A DNA stretch of 64,000 nucleotides from a virus. Position 1 is the stretch's first letter, and each line of letters opens with the position of its first letter. The notes under the pieces are model-generated. The model saw only the letters and a list, made by a program, of their open reading frames with translations, did not search any database and had not been told where the DNA came from. Below, piece after piece: positions 13,786 to 63,917 of this stretch. A program made the translations under genes and the position numbers. The stretch is taken from positions 47,342 through 111,341 of IMG/VR virus record IMGVR_UViG_3300025928_000005. One strand, given 5' to 3'.

Positions 13786-13814
13786 TTTACAATTGTGTTT
13801 CACCGTGATACGAT
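13786..13814 (+). promoter_or_regulatory. phage promoter TTTACA-N17-TACGAT, antisense to terminase operon
   Basis: matches repeated promoter; followed by CAGGAATCGAGGAAGGAG leader. Confidence 0.65.
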
Positions 13815-14619: not shown

Positions 14620-15333
<714 letters not shown>

Positions 15334-15532: not shown

Positions 15533-15814
15533 TCAGTCGGCGGCGTCGATCTGGCCGGCGACCGCCTCGTGAGCCTTGATCAGCTTCTCGGCGAGGTAGA
15601 CCCGTACGTGACGCTTGCGGGAGCCGTTGACGCGCTTGCCGACCGGCCGCAGCTTGATCAGGTCGATGAGGCTGCGGACCTGGCCCTCGCTGAGGTTGGG
15701 CGGCCCGAGCAGCTCGGCCGCGTCGTACACGGACCAGTACTCCGTGGCGAGGGTGGGAACGACCGGCAGGTCACGCGAGGACCAGCCGCGGCGGGGTGAG
15801 GTGGGGTCAGTCAC
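15533..15814 (-). CDS. putative HTH DNA-binding protein
   Basis: WSVYDAAELLG..QVRSL..VRVY, MerR-like pattern. Confidence 0.55.
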   Translation of the reverse strand: MTDPTSPRRGWSSRDLPVVPTLATEYWSVYDAAELLGPPNLSEGQVRSLIDLIKLRPVGKRVNGSRKRHVRVYLAEKLIKAHEAVAGQIDAAD

Positions 15815-16470
15815 GAGGCGATCCCTACGTCTTGAGTGGCTGAGGCAGGCAGGCCGACGGTGCCGTCTCGCCAGGCGAGGACCCAGTCCTGGGTCACGAC
15901 CGAGTAATCCATGCGGGCGACGGGGCGGCGCTCGTCACCGTCGGCGCAGGCTGGGTTGACGCACCGGACCTCGCCGCGGCTGGACCAGAACCGCAGGGTG
16001 AGGCAGCTACAATAAGGGCAGCGAGCCTCCGACTGGCCGACGTTCCGGGGCAGCCGACGGGGGACGTCCCGCTCCCCGAGGACGACCAGGGAGCGTGAGC
16101 ACCAGCCACCGAGCTGGTGGGCGGGCTCGAGGAGCCACGAGTCCTGGACGGCCTCGGCGAGGTTGCCGATCGCCCGCAAGGCGAAGATCGTGTTGGCGTC
16201 GTCACCGCCGCGGGCGTGCCAGCGCATGCCGGCGAGGTCGCGAAGGTCGTTCTCGAGGTAGCGAGCGAGCGCGTGCAGCTCGAGGACGAGGTGAGCCACC
16301 GGGGCGTTCCACGGGGGCTGCGAGTGGTCGATCCGACCGGACCGACCCCGACCACCGAGCCGGCTGACCGCGGTCGCGATGATCGCGGCCAGCCGGGCGT
16401 TGAGGTCGACGGCGCTGCTGACCGCGTCGAGCAACCGATCGCGGCCCGTTGATCTTACGGGCTCCGTCAT
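15811..16470 (-). CDS. hypothetical protein with CxxC..C..C (possible late regulator)
   Basis: SQPPWN, CPYC..TL..VRCVNPAC; coupled to HTH gene. Confidence 0.55.
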   Translation of the reverse strand: MTEPVRSTGRDRLLDAVSSAVDLNARLAAIIATAVSRLGGRGRSGRIDHSQPPWNAPVAHLVLELHALARYLENDLRDLAGMRWHARGGDDANTIFALRAIGNLAEAVQDSWLLEPAHQLGGWCSRSLVVLGERDVPRRLPRNVGQSEARCPYCSCLTLRFWSSRGEVRCVNPACADGDERRPVARMDYSVVTQDWVLAWRDGTVGLPASATQDVGIAS

Positions 16471-16508: not shown

Positions 16509-16964
16509 TCAGAAGTTACCGTTCGATACCTGAAGGCAGGGGATCCCGACCACGTTTCGCCACAGGTCGACGACCTGGTTGCGGTCGTCGAAAGCGGCGA
16601 TGACGTTGAACCTGGGCTGGATCAGAACGTAGAAGAGGTGCCGCTTCAGGTCGACATCCCTAGCGTAGCGCCACTCGTCGGTGTCGGGTCGCAGGTAGAG
16701 GCTGTGCTTCACGACCTCACGGCTCAGCCGACCGTGCAGGTGGGCCGTGATGAAGTCGGTGGTCGCGTCGTGGCAGACGACGTTGCGGCCGGACGCGAAC
16801 ACGAGCTCGTCGCCGACGTCGAGCAGGGCCCGCGCGACGGCGAGCACGGGCTCGTTGGGGAGGTCCTCGTGGACCCGGTCCCAGTCGTAGGGCCCGCGGC
16901 CGCCCGGGGCCCGCAGGGCCAGGGTGCCGTCGACGTCGAACAGCCAGGCTCGCCTTCTCGCCAC
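16509..16964 (-). CDS. HAD phosphatase like the 3'-phosphatase domain of phage polynucleotide kinase (PseT)
   Basis: FDVDGTLA, ASGR, D..LK, FDDRNQVVDLWR..GIPCLQV..GNF; no kinase P-loop. Confidence 0.85.
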   Translation of the reverse strand: MARRRAWLFDVDGTLALRAPGGRGPYDWDRVHEDLPNEPVLAVARALLDVGDELVFASGRNVVCHDATTDFITAHLHGRLSREVVKHSLYLRPDTDEWRYARDVDLKRHLFYVLIQPRFNVIAAFDDRNQVVDLWRNVVGIPCLQVSNGNF

Positions 16965-17210
16965 GTGTCTGCTCCGTTTCCTAGATACGACGATGGGGCC
17001 GGGTTGACCCGGCCCCACCATCTCTCCGCGCTCACATCCAAGGTGATGAGATTACTGTACCACTGATGTATCGCCTCTACCAGCGACTCGCCCGGCGAAG
17101 CAGCCAGAGCCAGAAGCCGAGGCGGTGCCGTCGCCGGCGTCGTCGGCGCACCTCAGCCACGACCTGGCAGCGCGGGAAGCTGCAGCCACCGGCGCACCAA
17201 ACGGCGCACC

Positions 17211-18917
17211 TCAGCTCTCCCACGGCCAGCGCCCCGCCTGGCCGGCCTCGAGGGTCAACGGCAGCCCGAACATGGCGTCGGTCAGGCCGCCAAGCTCGTG
17301 ACGGTTGCTGCCCGGCGTGACCGGCATCATCGTGTTCTTGTAGCCGGCGAGGTTGAACGCGTAGATCGGCACGTTCCGCGGGGCAGCCGAGTCGACGTCA
17401 CCCACCCCGTAGTTTCCCATCGTCTGACAGTCGGTCAGGATGATGACGCGGCTGTGCTCAGGCCGCAGCGTCTCGCGGACCGCCCTCGCGATCTCGGTGC
17501 CGCCGCCGGCGCTCCCCTGGTATCGCTTGAACGTTTCCACCGCCTTGAGCAGGCTCGTGCCTGGCTCGACACCGGTGACGTGGAACTGCGTGTTCGCGAA
17601 GCCCCACGCGTCGACGCCGGCCGGGTTCCGGATCTTCAGGGCGAGCCCGAAGAGCGCGGCCGCGGTCGAGTAGTCCATCTTGGAGTTTTCGGACAGCTTG
17701 CCCCAGGTCATCGACGCGGAGGTGTCGATGAGCACGAGGGTCCGGCCCGGCAGTACGGGCACGTTCGCCAGGGAGTGGTTCACGGCCTGCTCCAGGGCGT
17801 GGCCCCACCGCAGGGACGGGGCCTCGAGGTAGGCGTTGAGGAACCGGAACGGCAGCTGACGGCTCTTCCGGATCTGCTCCGGGTCGGCGAGCCGCGTCAG
17901 GAGCGGTCCGATCACCGAGTCCGGGACGCCGGCCTGGTCGAGGCCGCGCAGGTTGCGCAGCAGGGCCATGTAGCCGAGCTTGGGCAGCGCGAGCTGCCAG
18001 ATCTCGGCGTCGGTGACGGCGCGGCCCTCGCTCGGCTTCTCGCCGAGCCACGACTTGAGCCACTCCCACTGGCCGACCATCGCCCCGTGGATCAGGTCGA
18101 GGGCGACCTGGTCGTCCGCGAGGGCGCGGCGCGCGAGGTCGTGCCGCTCGCTGGGGGTCAGGCGCGCCATCGCCCACCGGACCCGGACGTGGGTCAGGGA
18201 CTCGGGCGGCTCCGCCCCGTCGCGGCCGTGCCGGGCGGTGATCGCCCACCGGAACAGGTCGTCCTGCCAGGTGCGCTCCGCGCCGGGGGTGCGGACGTCG
18301 GCGTGGGTCAGCTCGAGGACGTCGCCGAACCGCAGGGCCTTGCCCTCACCGTCGTAGCGCAGGAACGCGGCCTCGTCGTAGAGGCGCGTGACGGCGTCGG
18401 CGACGCCGCGCTTGACCGGCTTCGGCAGCTTGACGACGATCGTGCCGTCGGGGCGGGTGACGCCGAACCGGTGCCGCCAGTAGGCGAGGAGCTCGCCCGG
18501 CTCATCGGGGCGCTGCAGCACCGACGTGACCAGCTCGCGGTTGCCGTCACCGTGCAGGCCGGCGGTGAGCCGGGCGTGCACGGCCTCCGCGGCGAGCAGG
18601 ATCGACGCGGTGCGGATGTTGCCCGGGCCGCGCAGCCACGAGAGGAAGACCCGCACCCACGGCCACGTCTCCTCGTTGACGGCGAGCTGGGCCACGAGCT
18701 CCCGCAGGCGCTGCACGTTCTCGTCCGCGGTGTCGTAGAAGCCCCTCTCACCAGCGAACCGCGAGACCGCCCGCCTGAAGAGCTCGGACTGCGCGTCGCT
18801 CTGGAAGCCGGGCGCGCCCTCGTGGGTGAGCCCGTCCGGGGTCGCGCTGAGCGTCCGCAGCGGGCCGCTCGCGGCCGCGCGCCGCGGTTGGGTCGATGCC
18901 TTGTTGAATCCTGCCAC
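17211..18917 (-). CDS. rsr: Ro60/Rsr TROVE-domain RNA-binding protein with vWA domain
   Basis: THEGAPG, LQRPDEPGELLAY, LPKPVKRGVADA, YMALLRNLR, SRQLPFRF, MIDAS DTSASM, GGGT, ILTD; GTG with GAGAGG RBS. Confidence 0.93.
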   Translation of the reverse strand: MAGFNKASTQPRRAAASGPLRTLSATPDGLTHEGAPGFQSDAQSELFRRAVSRFAGERGFYDTADENVQRLRELVAQLAVNEETWPWVRVFLSWLRGPGNIRTASILLAAEAVHARLTAGLHGDGNRELVTSVLQRPDEPGELLAYWRHRFGVTRPDGTIVVKLPKPVKRGVADAVTRLYDEAAFLRYDGEGKALRFGDVLELTHADVRTPGAERTWQDDLFRWAITARHGRDGAEPPESLTHVRVRWAMARLTPSERHDLARRALADDQVALDLIHGAMVGQWEWLKSWLGEKPSEGRAVTDAEIWQLALPKLGYMALLRNLRGLDQAGVPDSVIGPLLTRLADPEQIRKSRQLPFRFLNAYLEAPSLRWGHALEQAVNHSLANVPVLPGRTLVLIDTSASMTWGKLSENSKMDYSTAAALFGLALKIRNPAGVDAWGFANTQFHVTGVEPGTSLLKAVETFKRYQGSAGGGTEIARAVRETLRPEHSRVIILTDCQTMGNYGVGDVDSAAPRNVPIYAFNLAGYKNTMMPVTPGSNRHELGGLTDAMFGLPLTLEAGQAGRWPWES

Positions 18918-18946
18918 GTTCCGGGTTCCTCTCAGCTTGAACGAGA

Positions 18947-18986
18947 ACGAGGCCCCCACCAGCCGTTAAGCTGGTGGGGGCCTCGT
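18947..18986 (-). terminator. 17-bp perfect hairpin between RNA array and rsr
   Basis: ACGAGGCCCCCACCAGC / GCTGGTGGGGGCCTCGT. Confidence 0.6.
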
Positions 18987-19028
18987 GGTGGACGGTCTCA
19001 ACCGCCTGCCTTGTCGGTTGAGACCGAG

Positions 19029-19102
19029 TTGCGGGGACGGGATTTGAACCCGTGACCACTGGGTTATGAGCCCAGCGCGCTACCGAACTGCGCCACCCCG
19101 CT
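19029..19102 (-). tRNA. tRNA-Met(CAU), initiator-like
   Basis: cloverleaf; anticodon arm GGG-CUCAUAA-CCC (3 G-C pairs); 1:72 mismatch; no CCA. Confidence 0.93.
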
Positions 19103-19105
19103 GCA

Positions 19106-19206
19106 CGTGAGCTGGACCGGGACGAGACCTGAGGTGACGGGCGGCGTCTGTTTGCAACCAATTTGCGAAGTAGCCGCTCGTCCGCGCACCGTCCCGGCCG
19201 CTCACG
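19106..19206 (-). ncRNA. Y-RNA-like RNA A (minimal insert)
   Basis: terminal stem, GGUGCG, inner stem, CUACUUC, short hairpin, GGUCUC; scaffold shared with four others; next to Ro60. Confidence 0.7.
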
Positions 19207-19209
19207 AGA

Positions 19210-19290
19210 TCACCACGAGACCTGGGACGACCTGGGGCGACTCTTCAAATTAGCAGTTTGATATAGCCCCTGGTCTTTGCACCGTGGCGA
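19210..19290 (-). ncRNA. Y-RNA-like RNA B (anticodon-stem-loop-like insert)
   Basis: GGUGCA..CUAUAUC..GGUCUC scaffold; insert UCAAA-CUGCUAA-UUUGA. Confidence 0.7.
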
Positions 19291-19310
19291 AGCCTGTGTG
19301 TAGTTGTGGG

Positions 19311-19455
19311 TCGACGCGAGACCAGGTGGCTGGCGGCGTGATCCTCGAAATGCTGCCGATTACACCACGTCCCCGAGGGGACGGCGGGATTCGAACCCGC
19401 ACCTCAACCTAATCAGGGTTGTGTGAAGTAGTCGCTGGCCGTCGCACCGCGTCGA
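19311..19455 (-). ncRNA. yrlA: YrlA-type Y RNA C with permuted tRNA-like domain
   Basis: scaffold plus T arm GCGGG-UUCGAAU-CCCGC, loop-closed acceptor CGUCCCC-UC-GGGGACG, D-like arm. Confidence 0.82.
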
Positions 19456-19462
19456 TGAAGTT

Positions 19463-19548
19463 GTGGGAACCGACTGACCTGGGTTGCCCCGGCCCATAGG
19501 CTATGACCGCCGCGTCTGGTCTCACGCTCGGTTCTAGACGTGAGCCAC
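19463..19548 (-). ncRNA. putative structured RNA with pseudoknot
   Basis: CUCACG/CGUGAG hairpin whose loop GAACCGA complements downstream UCGGUUC; closing GUGG/CCAC. Confidence 0.4.
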
Positions 19549-19555
19549 GTTGCAT

Positions 19556-19686
19556 CACCTCGAGACCTGAGCGTCGGTCGGGGTAGCCGCTTGGCCGCTG
19601 CGGCGAACGACCGGGGTTGAGACCGGTCGATGGGATTCGAACCCATGATTCTTGTGGAAGTACCCGCTCGACTTCGCACCGAGGTG
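19556..19686 (-). ncRNA. yrlA: YrlA-type Y RNA D with permuted tRNA-like domain
   Basis: scaffold plus T arm AUGGG-UUCGAAU-CCCAU, loop-closed acceptor CGACCGG/CCGGUCG, D-like arm. Confidence 0.82.
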
Positions 19687-19693
19687 CCTTGCG

Positions 19694-19768
19694 TGGCTGC
19701 CGATGGACTTGAACCACCGACCCCCGCCTTATCAGGGCGGTGCTCTAACCTGTCTGAGCTAGACAGCC
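19694..19768 (-). tRNA. tRNA-Ile(GAU)
   Basis: GGCUGUC/GGCAGCC acceptor; CCGCC-CUGAUAA-GGCGG; T loop UUCAAGU. Confidence 0.93.
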
Positions 19769-19772
19769 GTAC

Positions 19773-19870
19773 GGTGAGATCCTACCACCGGGAGGGAGTC
19801 GAACCCGCTAGGTTGGTCGCGACACCAACCCGTCGTCCGGACGCGGAGTTGAACCGAGCCGGATCTCACC
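19773..19870 (-). ncRNA. unknown RNA with two T-loop hairpins
   Basis: 10-bp closing stem GGUGAGAUCC/GGAUCUCACC; CGG-UUCAACU-CCG and GGG-UUCGACU-CCC; central GGUUGGU/ACCAACC hairpin. Confidence 0.6.
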
Positions 19871-19894
19871 TGAGCGACCTCGCGTAGTCGCCTG

Positions 19895-19966
19895 CGCCGG
19901 AGACGGGGATCGAACCCGCGACCTCTCCCTCGACAGGGGAGCGCTCTTCCATTGAGCTACTCTGGC
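19895..19966 (-). tRNA. tRNA-Asp(GUC)
   Basis: CUCCC-CUGUCGA-GGGAG; G73; A4:C69 mismatch. Confidence 0.88.
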
Positions 19967-19968
19967 TT

Positions 19969-20043
19969 ACGTGGTCCTCTGGCCGCTGAGGTACACCCCC
20001 TCGAAGTGGAGGTGAGGGGACTCGAACCCCCGACTTCCCACCG
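19969..20043 (-). ncRNA. free-standing circularly permuted tRNA-like element without anticodon loop
   Basis: order T arm, acceptor 3' strand CACCUCC, 7-nt linker, GGGGGUG, UA, D arm CCUC/GAGG. Confidence 0.7.
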
Positions 20044-20117
20044 TGACTGCCGCTGGACTCGAACCAGCTACCTTCCGAGTTTCAACCGGACGCTCTCCCA
20101 GCTTGAGCTAGGCAGCC
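20044..20117 (-). tRNA. tRNA-Phe(GAA)
   Basis: GGCUGCC/GGCAGUC acceptor; UCCGG-UUGAAAC-UCGGA. Confidence 0.88.
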
Positions 20118-20238
20118 AAGCACACGGTGAACCATCGCCGATCCATCAGCATCGAACGCGATGTTCGATGCTTTTACCACGGACCAGGGACTCGAGTACT
20201 GCCCGTGGTGGGCTGACACCCGTGCGTGCCTTCCCTTG

Positions 20239-20310
20239 TACCCCACGCCGGGATCGAACCGGCGCCTTCCGCTTGAGGGGCGGAGGTGACTACCACTACA
20301 CCAGTGGGGC
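20239..20310 (-). tRNA. tRNA-Glu(CUC), atypical C33
   Basis: GCCCCAC/GUGGGGU acceptor; UCCGC-CCCUCAA-GCGGA; T loop UUCGAUC. Confidence 0.8.
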
Positions 20311-20312
20311 GT

Positions 20313-20473
20313 GAAACCTCACCGAGACCATTGAGCCTGCCCTCGGTTTTCTTTCTGACTCTTGCTCTGCCAAGTTGAGCTACCCCACGACCGAGGTCGA
20401 GGGGACGGGACTTGAACCCGCAACCCAGAGTTCCGCTTGAAGTATCCGAGTGCGTTCGCACCGGTGAGGCTTC
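20313..20473 (-). ncRNA. yrlA: YrlA-type Y RNA E with permuted tRNA-like domain
   Basis: scaffold plus ACUCU/AGAGU stem, T arm GCGGG-UUCAAGU-CCCGU, loop-closed acceptor, D arm UAGCUCAACUUGGCAGAGC. Confidence 0.85.
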
Positions 20474-20539
20474 GTTGATCGCCGGTTGACGCCTGGTGGC
20501 CGGTCGTTCTGACTGCCGGGCTGAACCGGTGATGGTGAA

Positions 20540-20569
20540 ACCGTATCAGACAGCAACGAGCGTTGTCCA
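20540..20569 (-). promoter_or_regulatory. putative promoter of RNA array/rsr operon (TGGACA-N18-TACGGT)
   Basis: sigma-A-like hexamers upstream of first Y RNA. Confidence 0.45.
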
Positions 20570-20593
20570 GGGTAAATCTCAACAACTTTGCTG

Positions 20594-20622
20594 TTTACAT
20601 TCACCGCCCGTGCTGGTAGGGT
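20594..20622 (+). promoter_or_regulatory. phage promoter TTTACA-N17-TAGGGT
   Basis: repeated motif followed by CAGGAACGAG leader. Confidence 0.65.
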
Positions 20623-20653
20623 CGTACCAGGCAGGAACGAGCGAGGGAGTCAG

Positions 20654-20944
20654 ATGGGCAGGGACAAGCCGGCCTTCAAGAAGGCCGACGCGGTCACGAG
20701 CGCCAAGGACCGCACGCGGAACGGCGTCATCGTGGAGGTCCTCGGGGCCAACGAGAGGGGCGTGTTCCGCTACAAGGTGGTCTGGCCCGCCGACAGGATG
20801 CGCGAGACCGAGGAGCTGGAGACCGACCTGGTGCCGCTCAAGGGAGGCAGCGGCGGTCGTCGCCACGTCACCAACGTCTTCAAGGGCACCGTCCACGGCA
20901 AGCTGACCCAGTCGGGTGACGGTACCTTCCTCTTCGACGAGTAG
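20654..20944 (+). CDS. hypothetical protein (SH3-like pattern)
   Basis: ATG after GGGAG RBS and promoter. Confidence 0.65.
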   Translation: MGRDKPAFKKADAVTSAKDRTRNGVIVEVLGANERGVFRYKVVWPADRMRETEELETDLVPLKGGSGGRRHVTNVFKGTVHGKLTQSGDGTFLFDE

Positions 20945-20971
20945 CCCCCGAGCCAGGAACGAGGAACTGAG

Positions 20972-21430
20972 ATGAGCGAGCAGATCAGACGCGGCACCCG
21001 CGTCAAGGTCAACGAGAGCAACCGCCTCGAGTCGATGCACGGCAAGCGAGGCACCGTCGTCGCGACCCTGCCCGACGCGACCTACATGGTCTACCTCGAC
21101 GAGCTCGAGGAGGTCGTCGGCTTCTTCCGGAGCGAGATCGACGTTCGCATCGAGCCGGTCGTCAAGCGGATCCGGACGCGCGACGAGCTGCTGACCCTGA
21201 AGGCCGAGCTGGGTGTTGGGAGCGACTGGCACGAGCCGGACAACGAGGGCGTCACGGCGAGCGTCCACGGCGTCAGCTTCGACAACGCCGGCTTCTGGTA
21301 CCGCGACAACAGCGCCGGCAAGACCTACGAGGAGCTGCACGTCGTGCTCCGCAAGGACGGGGACGAGGTCGCCGTCGTCAACCTCGCGACCCTGTTCGCG
21401 TTCGCGACCGGCTACGAGGGGGAGGGGTGA
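20972..21430 (+). CDS. hypothetical protein
   Basis: preceded by CAGGAACGAGGAAC leader. Confidence 0.7.
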   Translation: MSEQIRRGTRVKVNESNRLESMHGKRGTVVATLPDATYMVYLDELEEVVGFFRSEIDVRIEPVVKRIRTRDELLTLKAELGVGSDWHEPDNEGVTASVHGVSFDNAGFWYRDNSAGKTYEELHVVLRKDGDEVAVVNLATLFAFATGYEGEG

Positions 21431-62578: not shown

Positions 62579-63917
62579 CTACTTCTCCTCGAGCCGCAGC
62601 TGGTACGGGTACGACTTCCGGCACAGCTGGCAGGTCACCTTGGCCGGGTCGTCGGTCAGGTAGGCGGCCGACGCCTGCCGCCCGCGGGCCGCGATCTTCA
62701 GGTCGCTGCCGCACGCGGGGCCCGTGAAGGTGGTGCCGACCCCGGTCCGCAGGTGGACCTTGTGCGGGCGGCGCGGCTTCCCGGGCGTGAGGCCCCACCT
62801 CGGGTCGTTGAACCCTGAGGGGCTCACCGCGCACTCACCTCGCGGTGCAGGAGCCGCAGCGCCTCGTCGTACGTCGTCAGGCCGAAGCTCGCGGGGTCTG
62901 GGATGGGCCGCCCGTCGACGGTAAAGACGTCGAAGTGCGACTCACTGTCGAGGGTGCCGCGGTTCGAGCTCGCGAGCCGGCCCACGGGAACGCCGTCCCG
63001 AGACACCTCCCACCACCACGTGCCCCGCGTCCGCGCCTCGACCCGCTCGCAGCTCCAGCGATGCTCCTCGAACTCGCTCACCGCTCACCCGCCGCCCTCA
63101 GCCCGTCGATCACGCGCAGCATCCCGTCTGCCTGCCTGACCGTCAGGTCCGCCGCCGTGGCCAGGGCGCTCTTGGCGCCCCACTTGTCCGTCGCGGCGAG
63201 CTGCACCGCCAGGGCCTCGGTTCGAACCATGTGCGCCCGCAGGCGCAGCTGGTCCAGGGATTGGTCGCCGTGTCTTCCCACGTCGGTTCCTCGCTCTCGT
63301 TGTCGTCGTTCTCGGTGCCGGCGCTCACGATCGAGCGTCGGTGATCTCCTCGAGCTGGGTCGCGGCCTCGAGCTCTCGCACCGACCAGCGGCTCGGCTCG
63401 AGGTGCCCCGTGACCCGGGAGTGGTACGTGAACCCGTACGGCAGCGCGTACCACCGCCCCGACCAGTTGTGGCCGCGCTCCCTGAAGACGCGGGCCCCGG
63501 CGACCTGCTCGGCGTGGGGCCGGGCCGTCAGCTCGGCCCACAGCTCCTCGAGCCGCGCGAGGTCGCTCGCTCCCTTCAGCGTCAGGCTGTTGATGAAGCT
63601 GATCGCCCGTCGGAGCGAGTCGACGCTCATCCTCCGGACGTCGCCCGTGTACGTGCCCACCATCAGATGACCTCTACCAGGTTGTCGGGGCTGAGCAGGA
63701 CCCCGCGGCCCCGCACGACCTTCCACACCACGTCCACCGCTCGCCGCCGCACCTCGAGGGCGGTGCCCTCGTGCGGGGCCGGCCAGCGGTCGCTCTCGTG
63801 GCCTACGGTGAGCCGGCACCGCACCGTCTCGCCGCGGGTCGCGCGGCCCAGCAGGGAGCGCGTCGTGACGGCGATCTCCGCGGGACAGCGCTCGCGGCCG
63901 AGCCGCAGGCGGTTCAC
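62579..63917 (-). other. five small ORFs (62579-62827, 62824-63081, 63078-63281, 63325-63663, 63663-63917)
   Basis: overlapping start/stop codons. Confidence 0.55.

What the first reader, a model, noticed from the sequence alone, without database searches (positions are those of the whole stretch)
16509..20569. Phage Ro60 operon fed by a dense array of tRNAs and tRNA mimics, plus an RNA 3'-end-healing phosphatase
Seen: on one strand after a plausible promoter, about 13 structured RNAs are packed into ~1.5 kb (Y-E, tRNA-Glu, tRNA-Phe, permuted tRNA, tRNA-Asp, double-T-loop RNA, tRNA-Ile, Y-D, pseudoknot RNA, Y-C, Y-B, Y-A, tRNA-Met), then Ro60/TROVE, then a PseT-like phosphatase. Known: bacterial Ro60 (Rsr) binds Y RNAs encoded beside it; YrlA RNAs carry a tRNA-like domain; rsr is often linked to RNA repair; some phages carry rsr with a Y RNA; T4 PNKP heals broken tRNA ends. 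Inference: this is an expanded counter-defence module that combines tRNA replacement, decoy RNAs and repair against host tRNA-cleaving nucleases. The number and variety of RNAs exceeds the one or two Y RNAs I know from rsr loci.
Basis: partly seen in the sequence, partly recalled or inferred. Interest (0 to 1): 0.92.

Follow-up and report, generated by a model that had tools for sequence, protein, structure and literature searches.

The report
Phage Ro60 operon with Y-RNA/tRNA array
A soil actinobacterial phage carries the RNA-surveillance protein Ro60 behind a tightly packed row of five partner "Y" RNAs, its only five tRNAs and a few tRNA look-alikes; the layout is real, but it is the usual design of Ro60 loci in actinobacteria and their phages, not a unique invention.

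Summary
On the minus strand, 20470-19028 is 96% filled by end-to-end structured RNAs. A conserved GC hairpin follows, then a genuine Ro60 gene and a kinase-less T4-Pnkp-type phosphatase. Only the "pseudoknot RNA" lacks support.

Multi-Y arrays are the norm here. 74 cellular actinobacterial rsr loci gave 116 scaffold hits, all just upstream of rsr, with 1-5 per locus. Related phage contigs carry 3-5, and cultured actinophages carry 2-4 unannotated ones. Ro60 sitting inside tRNA clusters is routine in cultured actinophages.

The phosphatase accompanies Ro60 in two of four close lineages and in no other locus fetched. The genome has no RNA ligase or kinase.

Anticodon-like loops (CU-NNN-AA, variable triplet) on some Y RNAs are a family-wide trait, cellular loci included. 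They fit the published dimeric-tRNA origin model. A decoy role is untested.

This scan has reported similar Ro60 "handle-RNA" arrays on other DNA. Verdict: a new, rich variant of the known Ro60-YrlA system, of moderate interest.

The parts
20590..20629 (-). Phage-wide promoter-like motif (C[G/C]TA[T/C]CA, 12-13 nt, TGTAAACAGC)
   Evidence: 11 copies in the 111-kb genome, this one directly upstream of the array. The block is conserved in L003, L006 and L010. A plus-strand gene with RBS GAGGGAG starts about 20654, so this is a divergent promoter region.
20540..20569 (-). Candidate host-type promoter, TGGACA, 18 nt, TACGGT
   Evidence: Invariant in four related loci (A2); coordinates. It was not called by the strict sigma-70 scan. 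Function is inferred.
20316..20470 (-). Y-E: YrlA-type Y RNA (scaffold plus T arm, closed acceptor-like hairpin, D arm)
   Evidence: Rfam YrlA 37.8 bits, E 3e-6, full-length but below the gathering score of 69. Scaffold 7/7 pairs. Orthologs in L003 and L006.
20238..20310 (-). tRNA-Glu(CUC)
   Evidence: ARAGORN; Rfam 52.5 bits.
20118..20231 (-). Unassigned folded RNA ('X'), several hairpins inside a closing stem
Evidence: z -3.2 against shuffles. It shares the motif AGUACUCGAGUYCCUG and its position after tRNA-Glu with the L003/L010/L021 lineage; L006 shares the opening closing-stem sequence at that position but not the motif. No Rfam match.
20043..20117 (-). tRNA-Phe(GAA)
19970..20041 (-). Stand-alone permuted tRNA-like module: T arm, 7-bp closed acceptor-like hairpin, D arm, short closing stem, no Ro-binding helix
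   Evidence: Rfam YrlA core 25.5 bits, model positions 24-84. 92-97% conserved in L010 and L006, with one compensatory U-A to C-G change in the closing stem. The MFE alone is not better than shuffles.
19894..19966 (-). tRNA-Asp(GUC)
19773..19892 (-). Small covarying hairpin (19873-19892) plus an RNA with two T-arm hairpins inside a 10-bp outer stem (19773-19870)
   Evidence: Two T-loop motifs. It always follows tRNA-Asp in three lineages. The outer stem and the small hairpin differ in sequence but stay paired. No Rfam match.
19693..19768 (-). tRNA-Ile(GAU)
19555..19687 (-). Y-D: YrlA-type Y RNA
   Evidence: Scaffold hit; R1 model 47.7 bits; T, acceptor-like and D arms; orthologs 84-100% identical.
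19456..19554 (-).
   Evidence: Present only here and in L002. z -0.4. No other copy in the genome. Status unresolved.
19311..19455 (-). Y-C: Y RNA carrying a whole permuted tRNA shape (anticodon-like arm CU-GAU-UA, T arm, closed acceptor hairpin, D arm)
   Evidence: R1 46 bits; fold and orthologs. The loop triplet is GAU here, CGU in L003 and CGC in L006, on an unchanged stem.
19210..19290 (-). Y-B: short YrlB-like Y RNA with apical 7-nt loop CU-GCU-AA
   Evidence: R1 71.7 bits. Orthologous loops are CUU (L003) and GUU (L006); L002 has a non-canonical loop.
19106..19205 (-). Y-A: short YrlB-like Y RNA with an extended outer helix
   Evidence: R1 82.6 bits; folds.
19028..19102 (-). tRNA-Met(CAU), initiator-like
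   Evidence: It has three G-C pairs next to the anticodon loop and an unpaired 1:72 (A x A) in the cmscan alignment. The initiator reading rests on textbook identity rules.
18946..19026 (-). Two strong hairpins; the second is a 16-20-bp GC hairpin about 30 nt before the Ro60 start (terminator, attenuator or processing site)
   Evidence: z -7.2. A hairpin of different sequence sits at the same place in L002, L003 and L006.
17211..18917 (-). Ro60/Rsr gene (568 aa from GTG 18917, RBS GAGAGGA)
   Evidence: Pfam TROVE; PDB phiLo Ro60 3.6e-17 and Deinococcus Rsr 1e-7; AF2 model with its 12 top fold hits all Ro60; MIDAS DTSAS read from the sequence.
16509..17021 (-). Stand-alone HAD phosphatase homologous to the 3'-phosphatase domain of T4 Pnkp; no kinase domain
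   Evidence: Pfam HAD_PNKP 2e-36; T4 Pnkp 1LTQ 5.6e-18 with FDVDGTL aligned. Beside Ro60 only in W, L002 and L006.
15811..16470 (-). Conserved neighbour of unknown function (four-helix bundle plus Cys4 zinc-ribbon-like tail)
   Evidence: Follows Ro60 in all close relatives. 44 unnamed homologs. AF2 pLDDT 82, no significant PDB match.

Best explanation
This is a phage-borne copy of the actinobacterial rsr (Ro60) cassette, with its cognate array of YrlA/YrlB-type Y RNAs, fused with the phage's only tRNA cluster into one leftward RNA operon.

Shown computationally:
- Transcription most likely starts in the conserved divergent promoter region at about 20540-20629.
- The roughly 1.44-kb region is 96% occupied by RNA elements separated by 0-6 nt.
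- A conserved-position GC hairpin sits before the Ro60 start.
- The five Y RNAs share a covarying outer helix, a conserved bulged helix (5' GGUGCGA opposite 3' GGUCUC), an inner helix and the YUAY motif.
- Three of them carry T arm, acceptor-like hairpin and D arm modules. Two are simple hairpins.

Inferred:
- The precursor is cut up by the tRNA-processing enzymes (RNase P, RNase Z) that release the interleaved tRNAs.
- Ro60 binds the conserved bulged helix of each Y RNA.
- The different apical modules tether or gate Ro60 toward host tRNA-binding factors and 3'-5' exonucleases such as PNPase. The phage thereby installs its own structured-RNA and tRNA surveillance particle while supplying the tRNAs for its most-used codons and an initiator tRNA.
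- The phosphatase is a lineage-specific add-on. It would convert 3'-phosphate or 2',3'-cyclic-phosphate ends to 3'-OH, which PNPase or the CCA-adding enzyme need.
For: Anatomy and packing.

Ro60 identity.

Scaffold: 27 distinct outer helices in 33 units, 6.7 of 7 paired with their own partner against 3.1 of 7 with a foreign partner. 97% paired against 26-44% for slid controls. T and D stems covary in 22 long units.

Specific link to rsr: the model built from the phage units gives 116 hits at E<1e-3 in 74 cellular actinobacterial loci. All are on the rsr strand within about 730 nt upstream of rsr, and none lie elsewhere in 487 kb.

Conserved order: Y-D, Y-C, Y-B, Y-A, tRNA-Met, hairpin, Ro60 is kept in relatives at 75-94% Ro60 identity, while the tRNAs are shuffled.

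Cellular kinship: the Ro60 is 47-51% identical to Streptosporangiales Rsr but only 36-39% to cultured-phage Ro60.

Literature:
- M. smegmatis YrlA and YrlB lie upstream of rsr, are cut from one precursor, and YrlA is cleaved by RNase P and receives CCA (PMC4201824).
- Thermus phage Ro60 binds two upstream Yrl RNAs and forms a complex with host PNPase (PMC12135203).
- RNAs with 2',3'-cyclic phosphate ends are not PNPase substrates (PMC7790460).

tRNAs: they read the dominant codons GAG, TTC, GAC and ATC (92-97% of their synonymous sets).

Expression hint: RNA-library contigs from three rhizosphere metatranscriptome runs match 19243-19679 exactly or nearly so.
Against: - No direct evidence of transcription start, processing or Ro60 binding.
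- The metatranscriptome contigs could be DNA carry-over. They give no ends or strand, and coding parts appear at similar depth.
- All Y units score below the Rfam YrlA gathering threshold.
- The GC hairpin might terminate most transcripts, which would uncouple the RNAs from Ro60 expression.
- The stand-alone permuted tRNA-like module, the two-T-arm RNA and the X RNA lack the Ro-binding helix. Their relation to Ro60 rests on co-location only.
- The phosphatase link is weak.
Confidence: 0.62

Rival explanations
1. Counter-defence module. The tRNAs replace host tRNAs destroyed by anticodon nucleases. The tRNA-like and anticodon-loop-bearing RNAs act as decoys or competitive inhibitors of those nucleases. 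The phosphatase heals broken tRNA ends.
For: - Phage tRNAs are documented to overcome tRNA-targeting defences (PMC10264068, PMC11555353; titles and abstracts seen).
- YrlA as a competitive inhibitor of an anticodon nuclease was proposed by Hughes et al. (PMC7790460).
- 7-nt CU-NNN-AA loops on conserved stems change triplet between close relatives: Y-C GAU/CGU/CGC and Y-B GCU/CUU/GUU.
- The tRNAs read abundant rather than rare codons.
- The phosphatase has an intact catalytic motif.
Against: - The same anticodon-like loops with many triplets occur in cellular rsr loci, e.g. Streptomyces UUCCA-CUNNNAA-UGGGG. They are not a phage-specific weapon, and the published dimeric-tRNA origin model predicts them.
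- Only 1 of 6 triplets matches a co-encoded tRNA.
- Four of the roughly twelve loops have U where tRNAs always have a purine at position 37.
- There is no kinase or ligase to finish a repair.
- The phosphatase is missing in half of the close lineages and in all other loci.
Confidence: 0.2
2. Mere co-location. The region is the phage's general small-RNA island. The tRNAs serve translation, and the Ro60/Y cassette is an independently acting captured host module with no functional coupling to the tRNAs or the phosphatase.
For: - The tRNA identity and order differ among close relatives while the Y-D to Ro60 core is fixed.
- Cellular rsr loci usually have Y arrays without tRNAs.
- A strong hairpin separates the RNAs from Ro60.
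- The phosphatase is variably present.
Against: - Ro60 lies within or beside tRNA clusters in many unrelated actinophages: LuckySocke, BRock, Atuin, Neville, VanLee. It does so in some cellular loci with 17-21 tRNAs as well.
- Y-E sits at the far end of the tRNAs, so tRNAs are embedded inside the Y array in every close lineage.
- Spacers of 0-6 nt imply shared processing.
Confidence: 0.13
3. The repeated units are not RNA genes but DNA-level repeats, such as protein-binding sites or recombination scars, or simple terminator hairpins.
For: Short conserved motifs recur at regular spacing.
Against: - Helices change sequence while keeping pairing, including G-U pairs, on one strand only.
- T and D arm consensus is present, with an Rfam YrlA hit.
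- The association with rsr is exclusive.
Confidence: 0.02

Closest known systems
Bacterial Rsr (Ro60) with YrlA/YrlB Y RNAs, especially Mycobacterium smegmatis (Chen et al. 2014, PMC4201824; Rfam RF02553)
   Same: - RNAs lie upstream of rsr on the same strand.
- A 5' GCGAA-type motif, the YUAY motif, and T arm, closed acceptor-like stem and D arm.
- A second, hairpin-type Y RNA.
- In M. smegmatis, processing from one precursor and a 7-bp acceptor-like stem cut by RNase P. Y-D and the stand-alone module here also have 7-8-bp stems.
   Different: - Five paralogs rather than the two described.
- Both strands of the Ro-site helix are conserved (GGUGCGA and GGUCUC), as in animals and Deinococcus.
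- Some units add a 7-nt anticodon-like hairpin.
- Real tRNAs and scaffold-less tRNA-like RNAs are interleaved.
- All units fall below the Rfam threshold.
Thermus phage phiLo Ro60 with Yrl1 and Yrl2 (PMC12135203; PDB 9KOP, 9L5Y)
   Same: A phage Ro60 with Y-like RNAs directly upstream. It is the best PDB sequence and fold match. A complex with host PNPase was shown there.
   Different: About 22% identity. Two RNAs rather than five. No tRNAs or phosphatase are described at that locus.
Deinococcus radiodurans Rsr-Yrn1-PNPase (RYPER) machine
   Same: A Ro60 ring plus a Y RNA with a T-arm-like module. It is the model for how a Y RNA tethers Ro60 to an exonuclease.
   Different: The Y RNA lineage and module order differ (Chen 2014). 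No evidence here for PNPase binding.
T4 polynucleotide kinase-phosphatase (Pnkp/PseT) in tRNA repair with Rnl1
   Same: The 170-aa protein aligns over the whole Pnkp phosphatase domain with the DxDxT nucleophile motif.
   Different: No kinase domain. No RNA ligase anywhere in the genome. It cannot carry out heal-and-seal on its own.
Phage tRNA clusters that offset tRNA-targeting defences (PMC10264068; PMC11555353)
   Same: A cluster of phage tRNAs for heavily used codons.
   Different: Only five tRNAs. Resistance-type anticodon-loop changes were not tested, since the host is unknown. Coupling to Ro60/Y RNAs is not part of those models.

Membership tests
Ro60/Rsr (TROVE + vWA ring protein) | TROVE domain | tested here: met
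   Pfam PF05731, E 4.5e-13, 49.6 bits against a cut-off of 23; PHROG 850 RNA-binding protein 3.9e-32.
Ro60/Rsr (TROVE + vWA ring protein) | Full-length HEAT-repeat ring plus C-terminal vWA fold like solved Ro60 | tested here: met
   AF2 model pLDDT 76. The 12 best Foldseek hits are all Ro60 (9KOP, 2NVO, 1YVP, 9NEN), with 543-601 aligned columns and TM 0.55-0.67.
Ro60/Rsr (TROVE + vWA ring protein) | MIDAS motif DxSxS in the vWA domain | tested here: met
   DTSAS at residues 398-402, aligned to DVSGS of phiLo Ro60. Invariant in A1 and A7.
Ro60/Rsr (TROVE + vWA ring protein) | Binds Y RNA | not testable with these tools
   Needs pull-down or gel shift.
YrlA-type Y RNA (Rfam RF02553) | Reaches the Rfam gathering score (69 bits) | tested here: not met
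   Y-E 37.8 bits (E 3e-6, full model length). The perm core scores 25.5 and the Y-C core 21.9. Cultured actinophage examples also score 32-47.
YrlA-type Y RNA (Rfam RF02553) | Encoded within 4 kb of Ro60 on the same strand (criterion of Chen 2014) | tested here: met
   All five lie 190-1550 nt upstream on the minus strand.
YrlA-type Y RNA (Rfam RF02553) | 5' GNCGAA-like Ro-site motif and YUAY motif | tested here: met
   GGUGCGA(A/C) in Y-E, Y-D and Y-C; GGUGCAA in Y-B; GGUGCGC in Y-A. UACUUC in four of five, with Y-B having UAUAUC. Not an exact GNCGAA match.
YrlA-type Y RNA (Rfam RF02553) | tRNA-like T arm, acceptor-like stem-loop and D arm | tested here: met
   Present with covariation in Y-E, Y-D and Y-C. 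Absent in Y-A and Y-B, which resemble the hairpin-type YrlB.
T4-type polynucleotide kinase-phosphatase (Pnkp) | HAD 3'-phosphatase domain with DxDxT | tested here: met
   Pfam PF25109 2e-36; 1LTQ and 5UJ0 about 1e-18 with DVDGT aligned.
T4-type polynucleotide kinase-phosphatase (Pnkp) | N-terminal P-loop 5'-kinase domain | tested here: not met
   The protein is 170 aa and matches only Pnkp residues 158-301. No AAA_33 kinase in the genome. It is therefore a phosphatase-domain homolog, not a Pnkp.
Heal-and-seal RNA repair system | An RNA ligase (Rnl-type or RtcB) encoded with the end-healing enzyme | tested here: not met
   PF09414 and PF01139 have no match in the complete 111-kb record. Rnl1 (PF09511) was not searched separately.
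tRNA | Cloverleaf above the Rfam/ARAGORN thresholds | tested here: met
   Five genes at 52-67 bits. Scaffold RNAs are sometimes miscalled as tRNAs by ARAGORN in relatives.

The most novel reading that the evidence does not exclude
The anticodon-like hairpins (CU-NNN-AA on a fixed stem, with the triplet changing between close relatives) and the scaffold-less tRNA bodies could be functional baits. Held on or near Ro60, they would capture, inhibit or sense anticodon-loop-directed enzymes (nucleases, toxins, modification enzymes). The rapid turnover of the triplet would then record an arms race in both actinobacteria and their phages.
Probability: 0.1. Interest if true: 0.8.

Novelty: new variant of a known kind. 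Interest (0 to 1): 0.45.

Why it matters
Ro60-Y RNA particles are conserved from bacteria to humans, yet their bacterial and viral roles remain poorly defined.

- This locus and the roughly 100 related loci examined show that actinobacterial-type rsr genes normally come with a family of 2-5 modular Y RNAs on one scaffold. That is far more than the one or two described experimentally.
- Phages embed these RNAs among their tRNAs.
- Public phage records annotate some of them as tiny ORFs or as tRNAs.
- The work gives a concrete scaffold model for finding such RNAs, a set of unassigned tRNA-like RNAs to characterise, and cultured phages (Neville, Quantum, BRock, LuckySocke) in which function could be tested.

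It does not reveal a new kind of system.

Tried and rejected
- Strict sigma-70 and terminator scan: no promoter, and only chance-level terminators on the wrong strand.
- DNA search of cultured phages with the whole module: only a 57-nt tRNA-Ile match.
- 'Pseudoknot RNA': not conserved beyond the 94% relative and not better folded than shuffles. A 6-nt loop-to-downstream complement (GAACCG/CGGUUC) exists, but nothing can test it, and the tools cannot fold pseudoknots.
- ORF 20579-21340 (minus strand): no family, no relatives, and it overlaps a plus-strand gene start. It is treated as spurious.
- Kinase, Rnl2-type ligase and RtcB searches in the genome: all negative.
- orf219: AF2 model obtained, but no PDB match at E<0.1; FusB-like hits are weak. 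No function assigned.
- Metatranscriptome contigs: they cover parts of the array, Ro60 and the phosphatase. They cannot show strand, ends or level, and DNA carry-over is not excluded. Uncovered bins mean nothing.
A proper rate test of the loop triplets was therefore not possible.
- The first genome-contig scan found nothing because the patterns were too specific. The second scan worked.
- Two reviews (PMC10870794, PMC6047535) are not held, so I cannot exclude that they mention multi-Y arrays or anticodon-like loops.

Full report
WHAT IS THERE

The window is part of a complete 111-kb, 69% G+C IMG/VR virus record. DNA runs holding it come mainly from rhizosphere metagenomes.

On the minus strand, ARAGORN and Rfam agree on five tRNAs: Glu-CUC, Phe-GAA, Asp-GUC, Ile-GAU and Met-CAU. 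They are the only credible tRNAs in the genome. They read the dominant codons: GAG, TTC, GAC and ATC make up 92-97% of their synonymous sets. The tRNA-Met has three G-C pairs next to the anticodon loop and an unpaired 1:72. By textbook rules that marks an initiator.

The T-loop word GGTTCRANTCC occurs nine times in 64 kb, against 0.22 expected. All nine lie in 19040-20418 on this strand. Together with the variant T loops of tRNA-Asp and tRNA-Glu, that makes eleven T arms, six of them outside tRNAs.

FIVE Y RNAs ON ONE SCAFFOLD

Each unit has four shared parts:
- an outer helix of at least 7 bp;
- 5' GGUGCGA facing 3' GGUCUC(G);
- an inner helix;
- UACUUC, the YUAY motif of YrlA.

A scan for motif plus helix finds exactly these five units in the window and two weaker hits elsewhere.

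Covariation is strong. In 33 distinct units from this and related loci the outer helix takes 27 different sequences. It still pairs 6.7 of 7 positions with its own partner, against 3.1 of 7 with foreign partners. On an alignment of 15 short units, 97% of cells pair, against 26-44% when partners are slid. There are 47 double-change cells against 15 in shuffles (0 of 500 shuffles reach the observed value). In 22 long units the T stem and D stem also covary.

Y-E, Y-D and Y-C carry a T arm, a closed acceptor-like hairpin and a D arm. Y-E is a full-length but sub-threshold Rfam YrlA hit (37.8 bits). Y-A and Y-B are simple hairpins like the published YrlB class.

OTHER RNAs

- A 72-nt module at 19970-20041 is the YrlA tRNA-like core without any Ro-site helix. 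It is 92-97% conserved and shows one compensatory change.
- A 98-nt RNA at 19773-19870 has two T arms inside a 10-bp stem. It always follows tRNA-Asp, and its outer stem changes sequence but stays paired in three lineages.
- A folded RNA at 20118-20231 follows tRNA-Glu and shares a 16-nt motif with the L003/L010/L021 lineage; L006 shares only the opening closing-stem sequence at that position.
- The 'pseudoknot RNA' (19456-19554) is an insertion found only here and in the 94% relative. It folds no better than shuffles.

Elements are separated by 0-6 nt (once by 20 nt) and fill 96% of 20470-19028.

ENDS OF THE UNIT

Upstream, a plus-strand gene starts near 20654, so 20473-20653 is a divergent control region. 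It holds one copy of a motif present 11 times in the genome (C[G/C]TA[T/C]CA, 12-13 nt, TGTAAACAGC). It also holds TGGACA, 18 nt, TACGGT. Both are conserved in related phages. The strict consensus scan found no promoter.

Downstream of tRNA-Met, every lineage has a 16-20-bp GC hairpin of different sequence about 30 nt before the Ro60 start. It could be a terminator, an attenuator or a processing site.

PROTEINS

The 568-aa protein is a true Ro60:
- a TROVE domain;
- a MIDAS DTSAS motif;
- sequence hits to phiLo Ro60 and Deinococcus Rsr;
- an AF2 model whose 12 best matches are all Ro60 over its full length.

Its nearest named relatives are cellular Rsr proteins of Actinomadura, Nonomuraea, Thermopolyspora and Planomonospora, at 47-51% identity. 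Cultured-phage Ro60 proteins are more distant, at 36-39%. This points to capture from an actinobacterial host.

The 170-aa protein equals the phosphatase domain of T4 Pnkp with the catalytic DxDxT motif, and it lacks the kinase domain. The genome has no AAA_33 kinase, Rnl2-type ligase or RtcB. The phosphatase lies beside Ro60 only here, in the 94% relative and in one 76% relative. It is absent from the other close lineages and from about 90 further loci.

A conserved pair of unknown genes (orf219 and orf93) follows Ro60 in all close relatives. orf219 models as a four-helix bundle with a Cys4 tail and has no clear structural match.

IS THE ARRAY UNUSUAL?

No. The evidence comes from four sets of loci.
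- Relatives at 75-78% Ro60 identity keep Y-E, some tRNAs, then Y-D, Y-C, Y-B, Y-A, tRNA-Met and Ro60. The identity and order of the tRNAs differ.
- Metagenomic relatives at 40-50% identity carry 3-5 units plus tRNAs.
- Cultured actinophages place Ro60 within or beside tRNA clusters (LuckySocke, BRock, Atuin, Neville, VanLee). They hold unannotated scaffold RNAs: Neville has about four, lying under the tiny ORFs gp86-gp90, and Quantum has about three.
- In 74 cellular actinobacterial rsr loci, the model built from the phage units gives 116 hits at E<1e-3. All lie on the rsr strand within about 730 nt upstream, and none lie elsewhere in 487 kb. There are one to five per locus.

Five units is therefore the top of the normal range. 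The accessible literature describes one or two Y RNAs per locus, or lists several YrlA hits (PMC4201824; PMC12135203). This scan has reported similar Ro60 'handle-RNA' arrays on other DNA.

ANTICODON-LIKE LOOPS

Y-C and Y-B carry a hairpin right after YUAY. Its 7-nt loop reads CU-NNN-(A/U)A. Between close relatives the triplet changes while the stem stays fixed: Y-C has GAU, CGU and CGC, and Y-B has GCU, CUU and GUU.

The same design is common in cellular loci. Streptomyces units show UUCCA-CUNNNAA-UGGGG with CAU, GUU, GAU, CUU, GCU, CCA, CGU, UUU and CCU. ARAGORN often miscalls these units as tRNAs.

Chen et al. call this hairpin the 'V' stem-loop. Wang et al. state that S. Typhimurium YrlA lacks an anticodon loop, and they relay the model that YrlA arose from a dimeric tRNA transcript. 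In that model this hairpin is the first tRNA's anticodon arm. The trait is thus family-wide and compatible with ancestry.

A decoy role, already floated for YrlA by Hughes et al., is neither supported nor excluded. Only one of six triplets matches a co-encoded tRNA. Several loops have U at position 37, where tRNAs always have a purine.

EXPRESSION

Contigs from three rhizosphere metatranscriptome runs match 19243-19679 exactly or with 1-4 differences. Shorter exact contigs cover tRNA-Phe plus X, tRNA-Asp plus the stand-alone module, the Ro60 5' end and the phosphatase. This is compatible with transcription across several units. It is not proof, because DNA carry-over is not excluded and there is no strand or end information.

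CONCLUSION

The best reading is a captured actinobacterial rsr/Y-RNA cassette merged with the phage's tRNA cluster into one RNA operon. The tRNA maturation machinery would process that operon. It would yield a phage Ro60 particle with several interchangeable RNA adaptors.

The counter-defence, decoy and repair story remains an inference. The phosphatase is a lineage-specific extra without kinase or ligase partners.

Novelty lies in the variant: five paralogs, embedded tRNAs, scaffold-less tRNA-like RNAs and conserved anticodon-like loops. The kind of system is already known.

Noticed in passing
window 13791, 20599, 23790, 33344, 34128, 41572 (minus strand), 51989 (plus strand); further copies elsewhere in the genome: A motif, C(G/C)TA(T/C)CA, 12-13 nt, TGTAAACA(G)C, recurs 11 times in the 111-kb genome. 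At 13791 it sits about 10 nt before an RBS and GTG start. It is probably the phage's own promoter or operator class.
   Followed up: partly
L022:3992-6434 and L023:3478-5761: In two metagenomic relatives the Ro60 gene is split into two ORFs in different frames by an insert of roughly 630-760 nt. In L022 the insert encodes a weak His-Me homing-endonuclease-like ORF, and Rfam finds no group I or II intron.
   Followed up: partly
L032:2400-3000 (Gordonia phage Neville, NC_060131): The tiny annotated ORFs gp86-gp90 upstream of the Ro-like gene overlie three scaffold-model hits and one Rfam YrlA hit. They are probably Y RNA genes rather than proteins.
   Followed up: partly
L034:5079-5242 and L007:5967-6199 (Streptomyces phages BRock and LuckySocke): Near-threshold Rfam manA RNA motif hits (48-50 bits, gathering score 55) lie between two tRNA-Lys genes just downstream of the Ro-like gene.
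   Followed up: no
L044, L066, L050 (Micromonosporaceae MAG, Catelliglobosispora, Virgisporangium): Cellular contigs with 5-21 tandem tRNA genes directly upstream of the Y units and rsr. They may be prophage or tRNA-array islands carrying the same module.
   Followed up: no
L016:3068-3319, L019:2744-2816, and many of L035-L114: ARAGORN calls 'tRNAs' with assorted anticodons that overlap Y-RNA scaffold units. This is a systematic source of false tRNA annotations next to rsr.
   Followed up: partly
window 62891-62983 (plus strand): ARAGORN reports a 93-nt tRNA-Phe(AAA) that Rfam does not confirm at its gathering threshold. It is probably a false positive.
   Followed up: no
window 17022-17210 (minus strand): The 189-nt spacer between Ro60 and the phosphatase contains three GGUGCGC words and folds very stably (-102 kcal/mol for 216 nt). 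The scaffold model does not hit it.
   Followed up: no
window 14620-15312 (minus strand): A LysM plus Rpf-type transglycosylase protein (Pfam PF06737 9e-34) supports an actinobacterial host.
   Followed up: no
L006:3700-3824: The 76% relative has a second stand-alone T arm, hairpin and D arm module closed by a 7-bp stem. These scaffold-less tRNA-like modules therefore form a small family.
   Followed up: no
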